Origin: a virus
DNA: 41,778 bases
Reading direction: 5' to 3' (one strand)
Virus genome (UHGV): UHGV-0176688
Both the position numbers and the translations under genes were made by a program. How positions within the stretch are numbered: the stretch's first letter is position 1; each line of letters starts with the position of its first letter. This document shows positions 11,104 to 30,992 of this stretch, one piece after another. Below the pieces are notes generated by a model, which worked only from the letters and a program-made list of their open reading frames with translations, did not search any database and had not been told where the DNA came from.

Positions 11104-11781
11104 ATGAATTACATGGCAACGAAAGAGCTTTTTAAGTTCCTTCCCAAATACAAAGCTCACAAAAACGTTAGTGCATCGAAAATCAAAAATGTTGTTATTT
11201 TCGGAGTAACTGATGCCCCACTTTGGGGCTGCATTGAACTCGTTGAACCAAAAGGGGCAACAGTTTGTGTTGACGCAATGTTTTTACAAAAACACCGACC
11301 AAAAACTGGCGGGTATCTGATCGTTTATGAAAACGGTTATCTGTTCTATGCCCCGGAGAAACCATTTGAGGAATGCTATGGCTTGGTTAACGACGCCTCC
11401 GAAAATGGAACCACGGTCATCATTACGGATGACAACGGCGTGATGATTAATATTACCGGGAGCGTAACTATTTCTGCTGGTGGTACCACTACCCAGCAAG
11501 AGGAAATCGACCTTGAAGCAGCCGACTTTTCTGACGCGCTGATGTGGCTGAAGGATGGCAAGAAAGTTGCTCGACGCGGGTGGAACGGCGAAAACCAATT
11601 CTGCTGGCTGGTTCCTGAAGGACAGTACCCGGCACGAATGGAAGCCATTAAGGGATATTTCCCCTGCGACCTCGTTCCGTATGGTGCTTATTTCGCCTTA
11701 AAAAATGCACAAGGTGTAGTTGTTCCGTGGGTGCCTTCTGTAGGCGACCTGCTGGCATGTGACTGGTTTGTAGTGGAGTGA
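11104..11781 (+). CDS. Two-domain protein with C-terminal DUF2829 domain (Tad2-like fold candidate)
   Basis: FSDALMWLKDGKKVARRGWNGENQFCWL...GVVVPWVPSVGDLLACDWFVVE is a strong DUF2829 match by eye. Confidence 0.7.
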   Translation: MNYMATKELFKFLPKYKAHKNVSASKIKNVVIFGVTDAPLWGCIELVEPKGATVCVDAMFLQKHRPKTGGYLIVYENGYLFYAPEKPFEECYGLVNDASENGTTVIITDDNGVMINITGSVTISAGGTTTQQEEIDLEAADFSDALMWLKDGKKVARRGWNGENQFCWLVPEGQYPARMEAIKGYFPCDLVPYGAYFALKNAQGVVVPWVPSVGDLLACDWFVVE

Positions 11782-19153: not shown

Positions 19154-20028
19154 GCCACTACCTCTTCGAATTTCAACTCCAATTGGTCACCCCAGATTTC
19201 ACATGATTCGGAACACGAACCAGTATCAAACCGCTTGGCCTGCACCATCGCCTGATACAAATTTCTGTAGTCGCTGTCGGCATACATTCTGGCAATCCCG
19301 TCAAGCGTCAGGTGACCACGGTACATAACGTCTTTACCTGTTCTGCGATGACCATCCCTGACGTGTTTGCCTGTAACCAGCTCATTAAAAATTCGCATCA
19401 GACCAGGTTCGTCTTTACATGCAAGCCCCAGCTTTTGCGTTGACTTTTTGATGCAAAAAACACAGTTCCCGAGGTGCTCCGGGATTTGCAAATCAAAAGG
19501 TTGTTTTCGCCACCACCGGATAACATCCGACTTATCAAAATCTGACAGCTCGGCAAGATACCGGACGCCCGGTTTCGGTTTCAGCCTACGGGGTTCGTCC
19601 GCACGAATACCCAGCCATGTGATGTAATTCCCTCGCCCAAAATGGTCATCGCAATATTTCGTGAAAGGGGTGAGTTTTAGCCTGTCAGTACAGAACGCGC
19701 CGCCGATGTATGGCGTACCGTACTTTTTAACCATGTCCATAAACGGTTTAAGCACCGGCATTCGCGTCTGAATATCCTTTGGTTCCCATTCCGTATAACC
19801 ATTTGGCTGCCCAAGTTCTGGATTTATATCGACCTGCAACACCGTTAGCGGTACATTCCAGAACTTCACAACCTCACGAATAAAGCGATACGTCAGAGGA
19901 TGTTCACAGCCGGTATCCATAAAAATGAAATGGACGCTAGCGCCAGCTTTTCGCTGTGCTTCCATCAGATGAACGAGATAAGCCGATGTTCGTCCACCTG
20001 AAAAGCTGACGACTTGATGCATACTCAC
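19150..20028 (-). CDS. PAPS reductase-like PP-loop protein (CysH/DndC superfamily)
   Basis: PP-loop VVSFSGGRTS and FMDTGCEHPLTYRF motif. Confidence 0.75.
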   Translation of the reverse strand: MSMHQVVSFSGGRTSAYLVHLMEAQRKAGASVHFIFMDTGCEHPLTYRFIREVVKFWNVPLTVLQVDINPELGQPNGYTEWEPKDIQTRMPVLKPFMDMVKKYGTPYIGGAFCTDRLKLTPFTKYCDDHFGRGNYITWLGIRADEPRRLKPKPGVRYLAELSDFDKSDVIRWWRKQPFDLQIPEHLGNCVFCIKKSTQKLGLACKDEPGLMRIFNELVTGKHVRDGHRRTGKDVMYRGHLTLDGIARMYADSDYRNLYQAMVQAKRFDTGSCSESCEIWGDQLELKFEEVVA

Positions 20029-20031
20029 GGT

Positions 20032-20724
20032 TTATTCCTGAACGCGCTTAAACTCGATTACCCATACCCACGGGTTAGATAGCCAGTTCTCCTGCCCGTA
20101 AAGACTGCGCCAGATATCACCAAAACCAACGCGATAAACAGCTTCCGGCGGCGTAATTTTGTACATCGCCGGAGATGCGCCTTCTGCTTTAGCATCTGCC
20201 TCGCTCATATCACGCAGCCGTTCCACACGCACGTCGGTAATTTCCAGCAAAATGCGCGATGCCCAGCGCGGCATGTGAATTGATGGACGCCACCCGCCAT
20301 CAAATTTTTCATTCACAGTGTGAGGTTTCCAGTCGGCATCATCGGGTATCGACCACAAGCCGTAATCACCCGGCTTTTGCTCACAACTGGCCCGATAAAT
20401 CCTTGCTGCGTTCTTCTCATCGCCACGACAAAGGTTGTCGTTCCAGTCCACACTGCAACCATCCTCATTGCCTAATATCGCCCACGCCTCACGGACCCAT
20501 ATGCGATCACCAACGTTACCGAACGGGCATAAACCATGTTCAGGTGCATCCATAACGTGGGTATAGACACCATTGCGTTTCTTTGTCGGTTTACGGATAA
20601 CCAGGCAGTTATCGGCCCTGACATTTTTTACAGGTCGGCGAGTCTGCGTCTTCCTTCCTTCGAGGATGGCCCTGACCATCTCATCGTTAAAAATCATCCC
20701 GCGTTCTTTCATTTTTTGATCCAC
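20032..20724 (-). CDS. ASCH/PUA-like domain protein
   Basis: MIFNDEMVRAILEGRKTQTRRP...RILLEITDVRVERL; start may be the internal Met at 20697. Confidence 0.45.
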   Translation of the reverse strand: MDQKMKERGMIFNDEMVRAILEGRKTQTRRPVKNVRADNCLVIRKPTKKRNGVYTHVMDAPEHGLCPFGNVGDRIWVREAWAILGNEDGCSVDWNDNLCRGDEKNAARIYRASCEQKPGDYGLWSIPDDADWKPHTVNEKFDGGWRPSIHMPRWASRILLEITDVRVERLRDMSEADAKAEGASPAMYKITPPEAVYRVGFGDIWRSLYGQENWLSNPWVWVIEFKRVQE

Positions 20725-20728
20725 CTCA

Positions 20729-21724
20729 TCAGTTATTGAACGTGATCACTCCGCGCTCGATGGCGAAGTCGAAAAGCTGGTTAGCTGCTACGTAAAGGCG
20801 TATGCCATGTGCTTTTTCCCATGCCCGGACATCGTTTTCTGCGCTTCTGGCGCAGTCATCGCAAAGAGGAACAGCCCAGCGGTCGTGTTCGTTTAACGAG
20901 CGGGCGCGGTACATGAATGGGTGATTAACCTTGCCGCCGCAGCCTACACACGGGCGAGACACCACAAACCGGAGATAAGCCGGGCTTTTTCCGAGTAAGG
21001 TTTTTGGACGGCGCATATATAGGAGGCCAGAATCTTCATCGACGGACAGATTGACGATCTGCTCTGCGGAAATATCCACCAGCTCGCGGGTACTATGCTC
21101 CCAGGTAATATCCGACTCTTTCAGAGTGCCGGTAGGGATTTCAGTTTTTGGCTGACAAAATGCAATGCGACCAGCTTCATCAGGCAGTTCGTCTTTAAGA
21201 TTCCGGCGAATGGCCCAAAAGGTGAGTTCAACCATGCTCAGATCGCGATCTGGCGGAAGTTTTAACTCGCTGGCAGCCCAGTTCATAATCCAGTTGGCGC
21301 GATTCCGTGACAGTTGGTCTTCCAGCTTGCCGTATCCCTTCATCATGTATTCCGCATCATGCTTCCAGCACAGGCGAACGGCAGAACCGTTATAGAAATG
21401 GGTGGTTAGCTGGTGGCTGCAATCGCGCTTATCATGCGCCTGGCAATCGTGAATGTTGGTGCTAACCCAGTGAACGAGAGAATCCTCACCACCTAACGCG
21501 TTAAATACACGCTCACTTTGAAAAAAGGGGGCCAGTGACTGGTTGGCAACCAGTGAATAATTCAGGTCAACGACACCATCAGGGGTGTTTTCAGCCTGTT
21601 CACGCGGCAATGGGGATATAAGAAAACGGCGTCCTGCGCCGATGTAATTGCTGGTGGGCTTATCTACAGGAAAGACAGCCACACCAGTTTCATTTACGAC
21701 ATATGGGGTGATTATTGCACTCAT
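20729..21724 (-). CDS. Hypothetical protein with C-terminal HNH-like zinc-ribbon motif
   Basis: CVGCGGKVNHPFMYRARSLNEHDRWAVPLCDDC (CxxC...H-N-H...CxxC). Confidence 0.45.
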   Translation of the reverse strand: MSAIITPYVVNETGVAVFPVDKPTSNYIGAGRRFLISPLPREQAENTPDGVVDLNYSLVANQSLAPFFQSERVFNALGGEDSLVHWVSTNIHDCQAHDKRDCSHQLTTHFYNGSAVRLCWKHDAEYMMKGYGKLEDQLSRNRANWIMNWAASELKLPPDRDLSMVELTFWAIRRNLKDELPDEAGRIAFCQPKTEIPTGTLKESDITWEHSTRELVDISAEQIVNLSVDEDSGLLYMRRPKTLLGKSPAYLRFVVSRPCVGCGGKVNHPFMYRARSLNEHDRWAVPLCDDCARSAENDVRAWEKAHGIRLYVAANQLFDFAIERGVITFNN

Positions 21725-26963: not shown

Positions 26964-27002
26964 CATGTCCTCCAAACAGTTATCAGGAATGATATTAATG
27001 TT

Positions 27003-27018
27003 TTATGTTAGAAAATCA
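27003..27018. promoter_or_regulatory. Operator-like motif in divergent promoter region (ref versus leftward operon)
   Basis: ttATGTTAGAAAAtca; exact 9-mer TGTTAGAAA at 27006-27014. Confidence 0.5.
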
Positions 27019-27083
27019 ATTTTGTATATCTAACTATTTTGATCAATCATAGAAAAATCGCTGAAAAGTAAGAGGCAGCCATC

Positions 27084-27662
27084 ATGCAGAAACAGAGCTA
27101 TTGGGAGAAACAGAGACAAAAAGCCATGCAAAAATTGGCTGACCCAGCCTGGCGAGAGGAACAAAGGGCAAAGCGCCTTCAACAAGCTCAACGCCAGCAG
27201 CAACGAGCGAGAGAAAAAGCCGCATCGCCTGAATATCGGCAAAAGAGAATTGAAAAAGCAAAGCAATATGACCAGCGGAGAAAAGAGAAAGCTGTATCCG
27301 CTCCGTCCAAAAAAACACGCACGTCACGCGGCCTGAAGGGCAGATCACTCACAGCCGATGAACGCCGGATACAGACCGCTATCGGTACTCTCCCCTGCAT
27401 TGCCTGCCATATTCACGGGCAACATAGCCCAGTGGTATCCCTGCACCATATCTTCGGGAGAACGGCAGAGAACGCGCATAAATATGTCCTCCCTTTGTGT
27501 AAATGGCACCACCAGTACGCAGCGCCAGCCGAGGTCCGAGAACAATATCCCTGGCTGGTCCCTGTTCATGCTGATGGAAAAATAGGCGGAAAAGCAGATT
27601 TCATGCGGCACAATGCCGATGAAATGATGTTGTATCAGATGGCGATTGAATTGATAAATTAG
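27084..27662 (+). CDS. ref: Ref-like HNH endonuclease (recombination enhancement function)
   Basis: LPCIACHIHG...SLHHIFGRT...LPLCKWHHQYAAPAEVREQYPWLVPVHADG matches P1 Ref as recalled. Confidence 0.8.
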   Translation: MQKQSYWEKQRQKAMQKLADPAWREEQRAKRLQQAQRQQQRAREKAASPEYRQKRIEKAKQYDQRRKEKAVSAPSKKTRTSRGLKGRSLTADERRIQTAIGTLPCIACHIHGQHSPVVSLHHIFGRTAENAHKYVLPLCKWHHQYAAPAEVREQYPWLVPVHADGKIGGKADFMRHNADEMMLYQMAIELIN

Positions 27663-27674
27663 TTTTCTAACACT
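27659..27674. promoter_or_regulatory. Operator-like motif heading the immI-like region
   Basis: ttagTTTTCTAACAct; exact 9-mer at 27664-27672. Confidence 0.5.
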
Positions 27675-27993
27675 TTAAGTTGAATTGTAAATTTCTCCGA
27701 TGTACATTCACTACCGATTGGCACACCGGTCAACTTTTTGAGACAAACTGTTTAGTTTTTCGTATTATTGCCGCCGCCATACCTATGGCGGTGCAATATA
27801 GGTGGCTGAAAAGCCCCCGTTGACTCACGGTGTTCCAGCCTTTATTGCGCCGCCACCAGACCGTGGAACAGTCGATGGCGGCTCCGAAAGCAAGGAGTCA
27901 CTACACTATGAACAACTACAGTCTTTTACCATCACTCGTCGTCCACCACTCACGCGATAATCTGCATTCTTTACTCGCGTCGGGGGTGTCAAA

Positions 27994-28161
27994 ATGACTG
28001 TTCGCTACCTCAACTTTCAAATCAAGAACATTACTGGCGGTTGCTATGACTGGTTTGTCACTCTCGGAAAAGAAGTGATCACCGGGAAGCTGGATGAAGT
28101 GAAAGCTAAAGCAATGGCCTACGCCTGCAAGCAAGCCCGGAAGAAATCCGCCAAAGCATAA
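27994..28161 (+). CDS. Small protein (55 aa), hypothetical
   Basis: RBS GGGGGTG before ATG; followed by plus-strand terminator; preferred over overlapping minus-strand track ORF. Confidence 0.35.
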   Translation: MTVRYLNFQIKNITGGCYDWFVTLGKEVITGKLDEVKAKAMAYACKQARKKSAKA

Positions 28162-28266
28162 AATACTGACTGTTGCGCCCTGGCATTATCGTGAGGTATA
28201 TTTCTACGGCACCTTAGAAAAACGGGTGCCGGGATTGGAACCCCGGATAATGCAAAAGGCGACACA

Positions 28267-28288
28267 GACGCCGAAAGCGTCTTTTTTT
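28267..28288 (+). terminator. Rho-independent terminator
   Basis: GACGCcgaaaGCGTC followed by TTTTTTT. Confidence 0.8.
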
Positions 28289-28385
28289 GTGTCATGCCAT
28301 CGCACAGCCATACGTAGCGTTTAGCTCAGAGATCAATGGTAGTGCTGGCTGGGCTGCCGAAAGGCAGGCCGGTTCCCTTTTGCGC

Positions 28386-28443
28386 CGGTAGTTCCAACCC
28401 AGTCAGTGCTACCGCCATTGAGATTGGAACCTCACGCGGTAGC
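28386..28443 (+). ncRNA. Candidate cis-regulatory RNA switch / c4-like antisense element upstream of icd-like RBS
   Basis: GTTCCAA (28391-28397) complements TTGGAAC (28424-28430); GCTACCGC (28408-28415) complements GCGGTAGC (28436-28443); CGGTAG also at 28387 giving alternative pairings; RBS AAAAGGAG follows. Confidence 0.35.
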
Positions 28444-28473
28444 TCCTTAAATTAGCAAAAGGAGACTGCCATT

Positions 28474-28689
28474 ATGGCTACTACCCCTACCCCAACTCAT
28501 TCTGAATTTATCTGGCGTTTCTATTCCTGCCAAAAACACCTGTATATCTGCGTCATGGCTGCTACCGAATCAGAGGCGCGCTCATACCTTCCCGAAGAAC
28601 CCTGCATTTTTGCTGCTCGCTTCACTCTTGATGCGATGGAGATCCTCAATTACTGGAATCTGCCGATGAACTGCGTGGAGGTGCACTGA
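28474..28689 (+). CDS. Icd-like small protein (by position and size)
   Basis: 71 aa, stop overlaps antirepressor start (TGATG), as P1 icd overlaps ant. Confidence 0.4.
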   Translation: MATTPTPTHSEFIWRFYSCQKHLYICVMAATESEARSYLPEEPCIFAARFTLDAMEILNYWNLPMNCVEVH

Positions 28690-29630
28690 TGAATCTGTCC
28701 ATCTCTCAAAAAGCGACAATGACCAGTATTGAGATCGCGGAACTGGTGGGAAGTCGTCACTCTGATGTTAAACGCAGCATCGAAAGACTTGTTGCTAAAG
28801 GAGTTATCCAACATACGCCATTGGCTACAGTTGAGAATAATCAATCACTTAGCCCTAATAAATACACAAAAGCCTATTTCTTCGAAGGCGAACAAGGCAA
28901 GCGCGATAGCATTATCGTCGTCGCGCAGCTCTCTCCCGAATTCACCGCCCGGCTGGTGGACCGCTGGCGCGAACTGGAGAATGCCCGGGTACAGTTAAAA
29001 TCAAAAGCCGAAATTCTGGCTGAAATGGCGCAAATGCATCTTGAGCATGAACGCCGGATCAACGCCGTAAATGCCCAGGTAGCCGAGGTATCAGCACAAG
29101 TATCGATGGTCGCTGAAACACTCGAGCAAATAAAGAAAGGCAATATTCCGGAAGGCTACATTGGCTACCGCCAGCTGGCGGCGAAATGTGGCCTGACTGA
29201 AGCCAAATGCCGAAACCTAGTCAACGCTTACCGGATTCCCACCGATACACATGAGTTTTTAACCCCCGATGGTTTGCTTGCCCGACGCTCCATTGTGGCC
29301 CTGGCCCCCTTCCGGAAAGCCTTTAAGCAGGTGATGTCGGAGGCAGAACCACGCAATAAACGCTGGTATCATCCAAAGATGGGGATGTTTCAGGCAATCC
29401 ACCATCCTGTGCCTGAAAGCCCAAAGGATAATCTGTCACTACATACCGCCAGAGAGAAGATCAGGACTGGATACGCAACAGTGTGTCGTCGTTCTTCCTG
29501 GCCTGAAGGTATATGGGTGTGGCCCGAAGGTGGATCACGAAAGCACTGGCGCACTATCCGGGATGGGAAAATCCATGCTATTGATTTAGCTCCAGAGGAT
29601 GTTGTTGCTACGGACTGGATTGTTAGTTAA
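28689..29630 (+). CDS. Putative antirepressor (Rha-like N-terminal domain) with DUF2829-like C-terminal segment
   Basis: N-terminus MTSIEIAELVGSRHSDVKRSIERL; C-terminus ...CRRSSWPEGIWVW...GKIHAIDLAPEDVVATDWIVS. Confidence 0.5.
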   Translation: MNLSISQKATMTSIEIAELVGSRHSDVKRSIERLVAKGVIQHTPLATVENNQSLSPNKYTKAYFFEGEQGKRDSIIVVAQLSPEFTARLVDRWRELENARVQLKSKAEILAEMAQMHLEHERRINAVNAQVAEVSAQVSMVAETLEQIKKGNIPEGYIGYRQLAAKCGLTEAKCRNLVNAYRIPTDTHEFLTPDGLLARRSIVALAPFRKAFKQVMSEAEPRNKRWYHPKMGMFQAIHHPVPESPKDNLSLHTAREKIRTGYATVCRRSSWPEGIWVWPEGGSRKHWRTIRDGKIHAIDLAPEDVVATDWIVS

Positions 29631-29757
29631 TAGCTTTTGCCCCGGTCAGGCCGGGGCATGATACCAATAAATTGCATAACATAGTGTAGATTAGTAAAAT
29701 AGCACACTCACACAGCTTTATAATTATTTGTTTTTTTACGTTAAAGGATGAATAACT

Positions 29758-30108
29758 TTGGCTACTAAAATTAACTTAGAAAATCCTCGGACAGGCGAGT
29801 CCATCTCAGGCTTTTATGGATTCTCCTGGACTACGTTCTTTTTTGGTGCCTTCCCGGCTTTGTTCAGGAAAGACTTTATAACTTTCATCGGGGTGTTCGT
29901 TGTGATGCTAATCCTGGCATTCCTCACTGCAGGAATTGGTCCTTGGGTAGCTTCACTTGTCTGGGCATTTATATACAATAAATATTTCACCGTAAATAAG
30001 ATAAAACAAGGATTTGTATTTGCTGGCTCTCACACAGAAAATGAGTTAGCCGCCAGCAAACTTGGATTGGTCTTAAACCAAAACAACTGCAAAACTATTA
30101 CCGAGTAA
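29758..30108 (+). CDS. Membrane protein, two predicted TM helices (TTG start)
   Basis: RBS AAAGGA 8 nt before TTG; hydrophobic segments FIGVFVVMLILAFLTAGIGPWVASLVWAFI. Confidence 0.45.
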   Translation: MATKINLENPRTGESISGFYGFSWTTFFFGAFPALFRKDFITFIGVFVVMLILAFLTAGIGPWVASLVWAFIYNKYFTVNKIKQGFVFAGSHTENELAASKLGLVLNQNNCKTITE

Positions 30109-30114
30109 AATTCA

Positions 30115-30146
30115 AAAAGCAGGCTTAGTCGTTAAGCCTGCTTTAT
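30115..30146. terminator. Bidirectional terminator between convergent genes
   Basis: aaaaaGCAGGCTTAgtcgtTAAGCCTGCttta. Confidence 0.75.
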
Positions 30147-30149
30147 CAA

Positions 30150-30992
30150 TTACGAATCTTGCTGGCAATTCAGAAACATAAATGCCCGCTTGTCCGTCAA
30201 ATCAGTGACATAATATTCTCTCGTTCCTGTAGGTTTTATTCTACGGGCATATACAAACTTATGTACCGGTTGTTTATCTCCATAACTCACTTCTGTCCTA
30301 AACTCATCAACCACGCTACCATCTTTTTCAGTTTCCTTTCTCACTAGCTGATTTTCTAATACAGGCTTTGATTCGTCCATGCCACTAAAAGCATCCTGAC
30401 CTGTGCTGTTGCCTCGGTTTCCGCGTGGTAAATCCCATGAAAAATAAGTGCCATAGTCAGTAATCACACGATCCCATGTTCCGGAATCCCCCATATAGTT
30501 AGAACGCTCCCCCTTGTAAGTTACAGCCACCTTACAGACATACGTTTCACCATTATTTTTTTTATCATGTCCAGCCATGCTCGCTGTAGTTGCAGGAGTT
30601 GCAGGGGAATTATGAATAGATGCGCTTACATCATCTTGCGTTAATTCCTCAACTGGAGCAAATTCATATATGGGTGTGCCGAGGCTATTTAAATATAACT
30701 TATATCTAACCCTAAGCGCACTTCCATCAGAGAATTCATACGTTCCCAGACATTGGAGCTTATTTTTTTCTCTTATCTCATTGATCTGATTATAAGCATC
30801 AATTACAGAGATTGCTTCCTGATCGTCCTTCAGCAGTTCATTATAATCATCGATTAACATCTGTCTGGTTTTAGGGGCATTGCAGTCAATTTTGCTAAAA
30901 TCATAAGCAAAGGCAAATGTGGGAACAGAGAGAGCAACAACAGTAGCAAGTATTGTTGAGGAACTTCTTTTTCCATTTTTTATAAAAAACAT
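30150..30992 (-). CDS. Secreted protein with signal peptide, AT-rich gene
   Basis: Start at MFFIKNGKRSSSTILATVVALSVPTFAFA (RBS GGAG); low GC; longer start at 31070 possible. Confidence 0.5.
   Translation of the reverse strand: MFFIKNGKRSSSTILATVVALSVPTFAFAYDFSKIDCNAPKTRQMLIDDYNELLKDDQEAISVIDAYNQINEIREKNKLQCLGTYEFSDGSALRVRYKLYLNSLGTPIYEFAPVEELTQDDVSASIHNSPATPATTASMAGHDKKNNGETYVCKVAVTYKGERSNYMGDSGTWDRVITDYGTYFSWDLPRGNRGNSTGQDAFSGMDESKPVLENQLVRKETEKDGSVVDEFRTEVSYGDKQPVHKFVYARRIKPTGTREYYVTDLTDKRAFMFLNCQQDS

What the first reader, a model, noticed from the sequence alone, without database searches (positions are those of the whole stretch)
27659..29630. immI-like module: operator, small ORF, terminator, RNA switch, icd-like gene and antirepressor with DUF2829-like tail
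The layout after ref matches the P1 immI logic (C1 operator, regulatory RNA, icd overlapping ant). Just upstream of the icd-like RBS two short segments are each complementary to a downstream partner (GTTCCAA/TTGGAAC and GCTACCGC/GCGGTAGC), with an alternative upstream partner for CTACCG (CGGTAG at 28387). That fits a c4-like antisense or attenuator switch controlling icd/ant translation. The antirepressor combines a Rha-like N-terminus with a DUF2829-like C-terminus, which is unusual.
Basis: partly seen in the sequence, partly recalled or inferred. Interest (0 to 1): 0.6.

Follow-up and report, generated by a model that had tools for sequence, protein, structure and literature searches.

The report
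D6-type immI antisense-RNA antirepressor switch
This is the secondary immunity region of a D6-like phage-plasmid, in which a small C4 antisense RNA is predicted to block translation of a cell-division inhibitor and an antirepressor; it is a known kind of switch, with two details that appear undescribed: a third conserved RNA helix and a Tad2-like tail on the antirepressor.

Summary
The window is a D6-like phage-plasmid; 27000-30200 is 92.7% identical to phage D6. Rfam places a C4 antisense RNA at 28332-28419 (76.7 bits). An isrK-type leader RNA with an intrinsic terminator sits at 28209-28287 (62.5 bits). Downstream are an Icd homologue (63% identical to P1 Icd) and a Rha-family antirepressor; the icd stop and ant start overlap.

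The pairings need correcting. GTTCCAA/TTGGAAC is the canonical a'/a2 pair. GCTACCGC/GCGGTAGC is not b'/b2. It is a separate helix, here called c'/c2, and it covaries across 14 related loci. The CGGTAG alternative is not supported.

The operator is not the P1 consensus. It is a D6-type 14-mer, with 9 sites in the window against 0.42 expected.

Overall this is a known system, already noted in D6-like plasmids. The c'/c2 helix and the Rha-Tad2-like fusion are modest additions. Their functions are untested.

The parts
27655..27674 (+). Operator-like site (core TTAGTTTTCTAACA, 27659-27672), a candidate D6-type C1 operator; it overlaps the ref stop codon.
   Evidence: 9 sites with up to 2 mismatches in the window against 0.42 in shuffles. 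D6 has 16 sites, including next to c1, lpa, ref and simB. No P1-type operator is present. Binding by C1 is inferred.
27680..27708 (+). Possible C1-controlled upstream promoter (TTGAAT-N17-TACATT).
   Evidence: Read from the sequence. The consensus scan did not list it. Inferred by analogy with P1 P2c4/P51a. Weak.
27994..28161 (+). Small ORF (55 aa), the homologue of D6 orf85; function unknown.
   Evidence: PHROG 7786, E=3.6e-43. Substitutions are biased to third codon positions. Annotated in D6.
28173..28202 (+). Promoter of the leader/C4 transcript (TTGCGC-N18-TATATT), the positional equivalent of P1 P1c4 (P51b).
   Evidence: -35 and -10 elements keep the same distance from the start of the isrK-like RNA in 14 loci, including the annotated P1 promoter.
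28209..28287 (+). isrK-type leader RNA. It carries a1 (TTGGAAC, 28235-41, in a hairpin loop) and b1 (GCAAAAGG, 28252-59), and ends in an intrinsic terminator (stem 28266-82 plus T-run).
   Evidence: Rfam RF01394, 62.5 bits against a gathering score of 50. Terminator scan. a1/a' and b1/b' are 93.3% paired, with 13 of 15 pairs showing compensatory change.
28332..28419 (+). C4 antisense RNA. b' is the loop of hairpin 2 (CCUUUUGC, 28376-83). a' is the junction (GUUCCAA, 28391-97). c' is the end of the 3' arm (GCUACCGC, 28408-15).
   Evidence: Rfam RF01695, 76.7 bits against 45, full length. The fold is 98.7% paired across 14 loci. MFE -46.4 kcal/mol, z=-5.5.
28424..28464 (+). Target region in the icd leader: a2 (TTGGAAC, 28424-30), c2 (GCGGTAGC, 28436-43), anti-SD CTCCTT (28443-48), b2 (GCAAAAGG, 28455-62) overlapping the SD AAGGAG (28459-64).
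   Evidence: a'/a2 plus b'/b2: 90.8% paired, 10 of 15 pairs compensatory. c'/c2 plus the mini-hairpin: 94.7% paired, 6 of 11 compensatory. Coordinates.
28474..28689 (+). icd-like gene (71 aa).
   Evidence: 63% identical to P1 Icd, E=4e-28. NF033153, 50.3 bits. PHROG 1426.
28689..29630 (+). Antirepressor-like gene (313 aa); its start overlaps the icd stop (TGATG). Domains: Rha (residues 11-98), long predicted helix (about 83-149), conserved middle region (151-240), Tad2-like tail.
   Evidence: PF09669, 33.4 bits. PHROG 63 'anti-repressor Ant', E=4.6e-61. D6 orf82. Not homologous to P1 Ant1.
29442..29627 (+). Tad2-like (DUF2829-fold) C-terminal tail of the antirepressor, residues 252-313.

Best explanation
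This is the immI (secondary immunity) module of a D6-like phage-plasmid, and it most likely works like P1/P7 immI.

A promoter at 28173-28202 starts a transcript whose first 79 nt form an isrK-type leader ending in an intrinsic terminator. Transcripts that read through carry the tRNA-like C4 RNA. By analogy with P1, C4 is excised by RNase P and 3' trimming.

The b' loop and a' junction of C4 pair with b2 and a2 in the icd leader. Because b2 overlaps the Shine-Dalgarno sequence, icd is not translated. The ant start overlaps the icd stop, so ant depends on icd translation and stays silent too. In P1 the untranslated icd additionally suffers Rho-dependent termination. The C1-type repressor is therefore not antagonised and lysogeny is kept.

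The leader carries decoy copies a1 and b1. These can pair with C4, either in cis within the read-through transcript or in trans as the short RNA, and so tune how much free C4 is available (the Gifsy-1 IsrK logic).

The c'/c2 helix is an alternative partner for the 3' arm of C4. It forms in the unprocessed transcript when a1/b1 hold a'/b', and it presents a2 in a hairpin loop.

A further, C1-controlled promoter probably lies about 500 nt upstream, next to the operator-like site.

Shown here: the RNA families, the complementarities and their covariation, the gene homologies and the start/stop overlap. Inferred: processing, translational repression, polarity, C1 binding, and antirepressor activity of the Rha-type protein.
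For: - Rfam C4 and isrK matches above gathering score.
- The element order is identical to the experimentally annotated P1 immI.
- b2 overlaps the SD.
- Covariation of a'/a2 plus b'/b2, a1/a' plus b1/b', c'/c2 and the C4 fold.
- Six of the 12 differences between D6 and the window in 28209-28479 are one coordinated 2-nt swap at a1, a' and a2.
- All four combinations of a' and b' alleles occur in related loci, each with matching a1/a2 and b1/b2.
- The MFE of the whole precursor (-111.7 kcal/mol, z=-5.45) pairs a1/b1 with a'/b' and c' with c2.
- Icd is 63% identical to P1 Icd, and the icd stop and ant start overlap as TGATG.
- The promoter position is conserved with P1 P51b.
- The literature already notes c4, icd and an antirepressor in a D6-like plasmid (PMC6799933). 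The IsrK read-through and trans-activation mechanism is described in PMC4825925.
Against: - No expression, processing or binding data exist for this element.
- The antirepressor is Rha-type and unrelated to P1 Ant1 (E=0.24), so its action on the D6 C1 (20% identical to P1 C1) rests on position and family name only.
- The operator differs from P1's. The upstream promoter is weak and was not found by the scan.
- The c'/c2 hairpin is predicted in isolated fragments for only some relatives.
- Covariation counts come from 14 related sequences that represent about 5 independent lineages.
Confidence: 0.8

Rival explanations
1. IsrK-type positive switch. The main regulator is the short leader RNA rather than C4. 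The read-through transcript folds into a translationally silent form (a1/b1 paired with a'/b', the SD in a hairpin). The short RNA acts in trans on that transcript to open it and switch on icd/ant, as described for Gifsy-1 IsrK-orf45-AnrP. This partly overlaps the best explanation. It differs in which RNA is limiting and in the sign of the control.
For: isrK match above gathering score, with a terminator. The precursor MFE has the cis a1b1:a'b' helix and a CUCCU/AGGAG hairpin over the SD. Mechanism described in PMC4825925.
Against: The same locus has a perfect 8-bp b'/b2 match over the SD that covaries, which the Gifsy-1 model does not use. The CUCCUU anti-SD is specific to the D6-type sequences and absent from the other loci. 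P1, which has the same layout, is experimentally a C4-repressed system (features).
Confidence: 0.3
2. The Rha-type protein is not a C1 antirepressor. It is either a Rha-like DNA-binding regulator, or mainly an anti-defence protein whose Tad2-like tail sequesters a nucleotide immune signal. In that case immI here controls a counter-defence or regulatory function rather than repressor inactivation.
For: No homology to P1 Ant1. Public databases name it only 'Rha family transcriptional regulator'. The tail has a Tad2-like fold. The C-terminal half stays 90-100% identical while the N-terminus diverges.
Against: PHROG 63 'anti-repressor Ant' matches over the whole length, E=4.6e-61. The position after icd is that of ant in P1. 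Of the SPO1 Tad2 ligand contacts, W73, N26, S76 and T78 are replaced. The beta2-beta3 insertion that forms the Tad2 dimer interface is missing. A canonical Tad2-like protein is already encoded at 11104-11781.
Confidence: 0.15
3. The GCTACCGC/GCGGTAGC complementarity has no function of its own. It would arise because c2 happens to resemble the 5' arm of the C4 stem, or from shared ancestry of the compared sequences.
For: Taken alone, 7-mer inverted repeats in the region are only marginally above chance. The compared loci are related. Folding of isolated fragments does not always use this helix.
Against: 94.7% of cells are paired against at most 55.6% when the partner is slid. 6 of 11 pairs show changes on both sides. 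Column 214/239 switches G-C to A-U while the 5'-arm partner (column 137) stays U, so c2 tracks c' rather than copying the 5' arm. At least four different sequence versions keep the pairing.
Confidence: 0.15

Closest known systems
immI region of phages P1 and P7 (Oc4/Op51, P51a/b, a1 b1, c4 RNA, a2 b2, icd, ant1/ant2)
   Same: Same order of elements. A C4 RNA of the same Rfam family, with a' in the junction and b' in the loop of hairpin 2. b2 lies over the icd SD, and a1/b1 lie upstream. Icd is 63% identical. The ant start overlaps the icd stop.
   Different: The antirepressor is Rha-type and unrelated to Ant1/2. The operator sequence differs. The repressor is only 20% identical. The operator-like site lies about 500 nt upstream, with a small ORF in between. 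The leader scores as isrK (62.5 bits), whereas P1's scores 35 bits.
Phage D6 orf82-orf87 region and D6-like plasmid prophages (e.g. pYU39_89)
   Same: 92.7% nucleotide identity over 27000-30200, with the same genes. The literature already reports c4, icd and an antirepressor in the ImmI-related region (PMC6799933).
   Different: A coordinated a1/a'/a2 2-nt swap relative to D6, which predicts a different C4 specificity. The window lacks the pmgF-like gene downstream of ant. D6 annotates neither the RNAs nor the Tad2-like tail.
Gifsy-1 IsrK - orf45/STnc1160 - AnrP locus of Salmonella
   Same: An isrK-family leader with a terminator and read-through, followed by a structured RNA and an antirepressor-like gene. 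The leader pairs in cis with the downstream RNA.
   Different: There the short RNA is described as an activator, and the C4/a2/b2 logic was not invoked. Here an Icd homologue, not orf45, precedes the antirepressor.
isrK + C4 tandem in Stx-converting and other lambdoid phages (e.g. phiP27, F039, TL-2011c)
   Same: The same two Rfam families in tandem, with the same a/b/c complementarities, upstream of a Rha-like regulator.
   Different: No icd gene between the RNA and the regulator in those phages. They are integrated lambdoid phages rather than phage-plasmids.
Tad2 / DUF2829 (SPO1 Tad2, ModTad2, HgmTad2 = AcrIIA7)
   Same: The same predicted fold: an N-terminal helix plus a small antiparallel sheet. 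The RR..W and D..A.DW motifs are shared.
   Different: About 62 residues, lacking the beta2-beta3 insertion. It is fused to the C-terminus of a Rha-type protein. It falls below the Pfam threshold. Half of the gcADPR-contacting residues are not conserved.

Membership tests
P1-type immI (c4-icd-ant) | C4 antisense RNA with the family's secondary structure | tested here: met
   RF01695, 76.7 bits against a gathering score of 45, model positions 1-87 of 87. 98.7% of cells paired across 14 loci.
P1-type immI (c4-icd-ant) | a' and b' of C4 complementary to a2 and b2 in the leader of the downstream gene, with b2 over its ribosome-binding site | tested here: met
   a' 28391-97 / a2 28424-30 (7 bp). 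b' 28376-83 / b2 28455-62 (8 bp), overlapping the SD at 28459-64. Covariation.
P1-type immI (c4-icd-ant) | Upstream copies a1 and b1 on the same transcript | tested here: met
   a1 28235-41 and b1 28252-59. 13 of 15 pairs show compensatory change.
P1-type immI (c4-icd-ant) | icd homologue whose end overlaps the start of the antirepressor gene | tested here: met
   63% identity to P1 Icd. NF033153. TGATG overlap at 28687-28691.
P1-type immI (c4-icd-ant) | Antirepressor homologous to P1 Ant1/Ant2 | tested here: not met
   BLASTP E=0.24. The protein is Rha-type.
P1-type immI (c4-icd-ant) | C1 operator of P1 consensus at the promoter | tested here: not met
   0 matches with up to 3 mismatches. A different dispersed 14-mer is present instead.
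P1-type immI (c4-icd-ant) | C4 excised from a precursor by RNase P; translational block of icd causes Rho-dependent polarity on ant | not testable with these tools
   Requires RNA mapping and genetics.
isrK RNA (RF01394) | Three-hairpin RNA ending in an intrinsic terminator, starting at its own promoter | tested here: met
   62.5 bits against a gathering score of 50. Terminator. Conserved promoter spacing.
isrK RNA (RF01394) | Short form acts in trans on its own read-through transcript to activate translation | not testable with these tools
   Only the cis pairing is predicted.
Rha family (PF09669) | Pfam gathering score | tested here: met
   33.4 bits against 29.9, residues 11-98, profile positions 1-91 of 91.
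Tad2-like / DUF2829 (PF11195) | Pfam gathering score | tested here: not met
   10.9 bits against 25, E=0.71. The homologue P0009 reaches 23.9 bits. hhalign against the window's own canonical domain gives E=0.019.
Tad2-like / DUF2829 (PF11195) | Tad2 fold | tested here: met
Tad2-like / DUF2829 (PF11195) | gcADPR-contacting residues of SPO1 Tad2 (W25, N26, D67, H71, W73, S76, T78, D79) | tested here: inconclusive
   From the HMMER alignment and the residue list: D67, H71 and D79 are kept; W73 becomes I, S76 becomes A, T78 becomes E. W25 probably corresponds to the invariant W, and N26 becomes P; these two were placed by eye, not by a full alignment.
Tad2-like / DUF2829 (PF11195) | Homotetramer that binds and sequesters an immune signal | not testable with these tools
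   The beta2-beta3 segment that forms the Tad2 dimer interface is absent from the tail.

The most novel reading that the evidence does not exclude
The Tad2-like tail is a working ligand-binding domain. Two readings follow. In the first, the antirepressor doubles as a sponge for a TIR- or cGAS-type immune signal at the moment of induction. In the second, more interesting one, it senses such a signal, so that activation of host abortive-infection signalling (for example by a superinfecting phage) switches on antirepression and lets the plasmid prophage escape a doomed cell. Separately, the covarying c'/c2 helix may be a so-far undescribed third element of C4 switches. It would decide between C4 maturation and a cis-locked, translationally silent precursor.
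Probability: 0.1. Interest if true: 0.75.

Novelty: new member of a known kind. Interest (0 to 1): 0.33.

Why it matters
The module itself is textbook P1-type secondary immunity, and its presence in D6-like plasmids is already published. Its confirmation mainly improves annotation, because the RNAs, the operator motif and the domain structure of the antirepressor are absent from the D6 record.

Three points have some wider value.
- Natural allele swaps at a1/a'/a2 and b1/b'/b2 occur in all four combinations. They give a ready-made map of immI specificity types among very common E. coli and Salmonella phage-plasmids.
- The third helix, c'/c2, is conserved from P1-like plasmids to Stx phages. 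It gives a testable handle on how the precursor chooses between making C4 and staying locked.
- A Tad2-fold domain fused to an antirepressor would, if it binds anything, link lysis-lysogeny control to nucleotide immune signalling.

Tried and rejected
- A search for the P1 C1 operator consensus found nothing.
- The D6 orf86 equivalent (27875-27997) varies mostly at first and second codon positions and is probably not coding.
- Single-sequence AlphaFold of the full antirepressor was too poor to use (mean pLDDT 54.6).
- The word-indexed homologue search with the tail alone returned only 5 close relatives.
- The exhaustive representative search returned 9 hits. Several are repeat proteins that share only a short stretch with the tail (best-matching stretches of about 25-56 query residues).
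- tblastn of the tail against the phage collection found only D6.
- PADLOC gave nothing relevant.
- The afdb50 fold library was unavailable.
- ARAGORN finds no tRNA in the tRNA-like stretch at 28320.
- The D6 genome paper (Gilcrease and Casjens) and the original c4 papers are not in the searchable library. I therefore could not check whether c'/c2 or the D6 operator motif were described there.
Full report
**Identity of the region.** Window 27000-30200 is 92.7% identical to Escherichia phage D6. The D6 record annotates, in the same order, ref, two small ORFs (orf86, orf85), an Icd-like protein and an 'anti-repressor Ant'. The second half of the window matches about 90-kb E. coli and Salmonella plasmids at 94-96% identity. 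The window is therefore part of a D6-like phage-plasmid. A published analysis of one such plasmid, pYU39_89, already states that an ImmI-related region contains homologues of the c4 antisense RNA, icd and an antirepressor (PMC6799933).

**RNA elements.** A scan of the whole window against Rfam at gathering thresholds gives two hits inside the finding. One is C4 antisense RNA (RF01695) at 28332-28419: 76.7 bits against a gathering score of 45, full model length. The other is isrK (RF01394) at 28209-28287: 62.5 bits against 50. The isrK match ends in the stem-loop plus T-run that the terminator scan also reports at 28266-28282.

**Comparison with P1.** I fetched the experimentally annotated P1 immI for comparison. 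In P1 the order is operator Oc4, promoters P2c4 and P1c4, a1, b1, c4 RNA, a2, b2, icd, ant1. In P1, a' (CUGUCAA) is the single-stranded junction after hairpin 2 of C4. b' (UCACUAAC) is the loop of hairpin 2. b2 overlaps the icd Shine-Dalgarno sequence.

**The pairings in the window.** Transferring the P1 anatomy to the window gives the following (coordinates):
- a' = GUUCCAA, 28391-97
- a2 = UUGGAAC, 28424-30
- a1 = UUGGAAC, 28235-41, in the loop of the second isrK hairpin
- b' = CCUUUUGC, 28376-83
- b2 = GCAAAAGG, 28455-62, overlapping the SD AAGGAG at 28459-64, with the icd ATG at 28474
- b1 = GCAAAAGG, 28252-59

**Covariation.** I took 80 icd-linked loci from IMG/VR and six phage records. 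From these I chose 14 distinct sequences running from the isrK start to the icd ATG and aligned them (A2).
- a'/a2 plus b'/b2: 90.8% of cells paired, against at most 51% when the partner is slid. 10 of 15 pairs change on both sides. 0 of 500 shuffles reach the score.
- a1/a' plus b1/b': 93.3% paired, 13 of 15 pairs compensatory.
- The Rfam C4 fold: 98.7% paired.

Two observations are especially telling. Between D6 and the window, 6 of the 12 differences in 28209-28479 are one coordinated 2-nt swap at a1, a' and a2. Among D6-like loci, two a' alleles and two b' alleles occur in all four combinations, each with matching a1/a2 and b1/b2. This is the behaviour expected of immI specificity determinants. 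By my recollection it parallels the P1/P7 heteroimmunity case; I did not check that against a source here.

GCTACCGC (28408-15) is the end of the 3' arm of the long outer stem of C4. GCGGTAGC (28436-43) lies between a2 and b2. I call these c' and c2. The pairing is conserved with compensatory change: GCUACCGC/GCGGUAGC here, CCACCGCC/GGCGGUGG, UCACCACC/GGUGGUGA and CUGCCACC/GGUGGUAG elsewhere.

Counted together with a 3-bp mini-helix (GAG/CUC) that closes a2 into an 8-nt loop, 94.7% of cells pair, against at most 55.6% when slid. 6 of 11 pairs change on both sides. Column 214/239 alternates G-C and A-U while the 5'-arm partner of the same base stays U. So c2 follows c' rather than merely copying the 5' arm.

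The 3' arm of C4 therefore has two mutually exclusive, conserved partners. In the MFE fold of the whole read-through transcript 28209-28480 (-111.7 kcal/mol, z=-5.45), a1/b1 pair in cis with a'/b'. The C4 outer stem is open. c' pairs with c2, with a2 in the loop. CUCCU pairs with AGGAG over the SD. C4 alone folds into the Rfam structure (-46.4 kcal/mol).

The cis a1b1:a'b' helix corresponds to the 'structure A' demonstrated for Gifsy-1 IsrK (PMC4825925). Fragment folds of other loci use c'/c2 in some cases and other partners of c2 in others. The helix is thus supported by comparative evidence more than by thermodynamics, and its role is inferred.

I found no description of c'/c2 in the searchable literature, but the original P1 papers are not held.

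**Promoters and operator.** The 60 nt upstream of the isrK-like RNA hold TTGCGC-N18-TATATT (28173-28202). Its distance to the RNA start is the same as that of the annotated P1 promoter P1c4 (P51b). Equivalent hexamers appear in all 14 loci.

The P1 C1 operator consensus is absent from the window. At 27659-27672, however, lies TTAGTTTTCTAACA. With up to 2 mismatches it occurs 9 times in the window (0.42 expected) and 16 times in D6. Sites include positions next to c1, lpa, ref and simB. That dispersed pattern is what P1 C1 operators show.

The window's C1-like protein (7247-8284, minus strand) is 99% identical to D6 C1 but only 20% identical to P1 C1. That fits a different operator sequence. 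A possible promoter, TTGAAT-N17-TACATT, follows at 27680-27708, but it is weak evidence. Between it and the leader lies orf85 (27994-28161), which varies like a coding sequence. The orf86 frame does not.

**Proteins.** Icd is 63% identical to P1 Icd and matches NF033153. Its stop overlaps the ant start as TGATG.

The 313-aa protein has a Rha domain (PF09669, 33.4 bits) and matches PHROG 63 'anti-repressor Ant' over its whole length. It is unrelated to P1 Ant1. Full-length relatives (73-98% identity) are abundant on about 90-kb E. coli and Salmonella contigs. All are named only 'Rha family transcriptional regulator'. Residues 151-313 stay 90-100% identical where the N-terminus drops to 34-65%.

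**The antirepressor tail.** Residues 252-312 match a stand-alone 65-aa PHROG, number 7385.

The sequence evidence for Tad2/DUF2829 is sub-threshold but convergent:
- PF11195 is the only Pfam hit, at E=0.71.
- A 96-aa homologue reaches E=6e-5.
- A profile of the tail ranks SPO1 Tad2 first among 177,635 PDB sequences, at E=0.5.
- hhalign against the window's own canonical Tad2-like protein gives an end-to-end alignment at E=0.019.

The fold evidence comes from an AlphaFold model built on a 6-sequence alignment, with mean pLDDT 74:
- It retrieves Tad2 structures as the top nine Foldseek hits, prob 0.97-1.0, with the next hits below 0.2.
- DUF2829/Tad2-like proteins dominate the BFVD hits.

So the fold assignment holds, but function is open. 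The tail lacks the beta2-beta3 insertion that forms the Tad2 dimer interface. Of the gcADPR contacts listed for SPO1 Tad2, D67, H71 and D79 are kept, while W73, S76 and T78 are replaced. A canonical Tad2-like protein (PF11195, E=7e-23) is encoded elsewhere in the window, at 11104-11781.

**Verdict.** It is a member of a well-known system, already noted for this phage group. The corrections concern which segments pair, the nature of the operator and the type of antirepressor. The additions, a covarying third helix and a Tad2-fold tail on the antirepressor, are of moderate interest and untested function.

Noticed in passing
window 11104-11781 (+): A 225-aa protein with a canonical Tad2-like/DUF2829 domain (PF11195, E=7e-23, residues 141-224). 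It is the relative of D6 orf114, so the plasmid carries both a standard Tad2-like protein and the divergent tail on Ant.
   Followed up: partly
window 3865, 8299, 9709, 27659, 39171 (+); 8386, 21767, 27006, 31090 (-): A dispersed 14-nt motif, TTAGTTTTCTAACA (up to 2 mismatches): 9 sites against 0.42 expected. D6 has 16 sites, next to c1, lpa, ref, simB, pdcB and repL. It is a candidate D6-type C1 operator set.
   Followed up: partly
window 28320-28345: TTTAGCTCAG followed by GGTAG.GC resembles a tRNA D-arm. The same 10-mer otherwise occurs only in the tRNA genes at 954 and 2355. It sits in a roughly 20-nt insertion specific to the D6-type spacer between the leader terminator and C4. ARAGORN calls no tRNA here.
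   Followed up: partly
window 28238-39, 28393-94, 28427-28 compared with D6: A coordinated 2-nt swap at a1, a' and a2 relative to phage D6, which predicts a different C4 specificity. All four a'/b' allele combinations exist among IMG/VR loci.
   Followed up: yes
window 29631-29757 compared with L001 5632-6120: The window lacks the pmgF-like gene (D6 orf81) that D6 carries between ant and the orf80 homologue. This accounts for the roughly 360-bp length difference.
   Followed up: no
window 27875-27997 (+): The ORF equivalent to D6 orf86 varies mainly at first and second codon positions, and almost all changes are non-synonymous. It is probably not a gene in that frame. The region also holds repeated GCCGCCA/TGGCGG(C/T) inverted segments at 27773-27882.
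   Followed up: partly
window 28443-28464: The anti-SD CTCCTT (28443-48) can pair with the icd SD AAGGAG (28459-64), giving an intrinsic SD-sequestering hairpin. It is seen only in the D6-type sequences, not in the other C4 loci.
   Followed up: partly
D6 record 19986-20917 (L088): D6 has a second icd-like gene plus a Roi-type 'Ant' next to repL. This is the second c4/icd region mentioned for pYU39_89. It lies outside this window.
   Followed up: no
L086 2515-2598 (phage TL-2011c): An Rfam sRNA-Xcc1 match (79.6 bits) lies downstream of the isrK-C4-regulated gene and just upstream of a gene annotated as anti-repressor.
   Followed up: no
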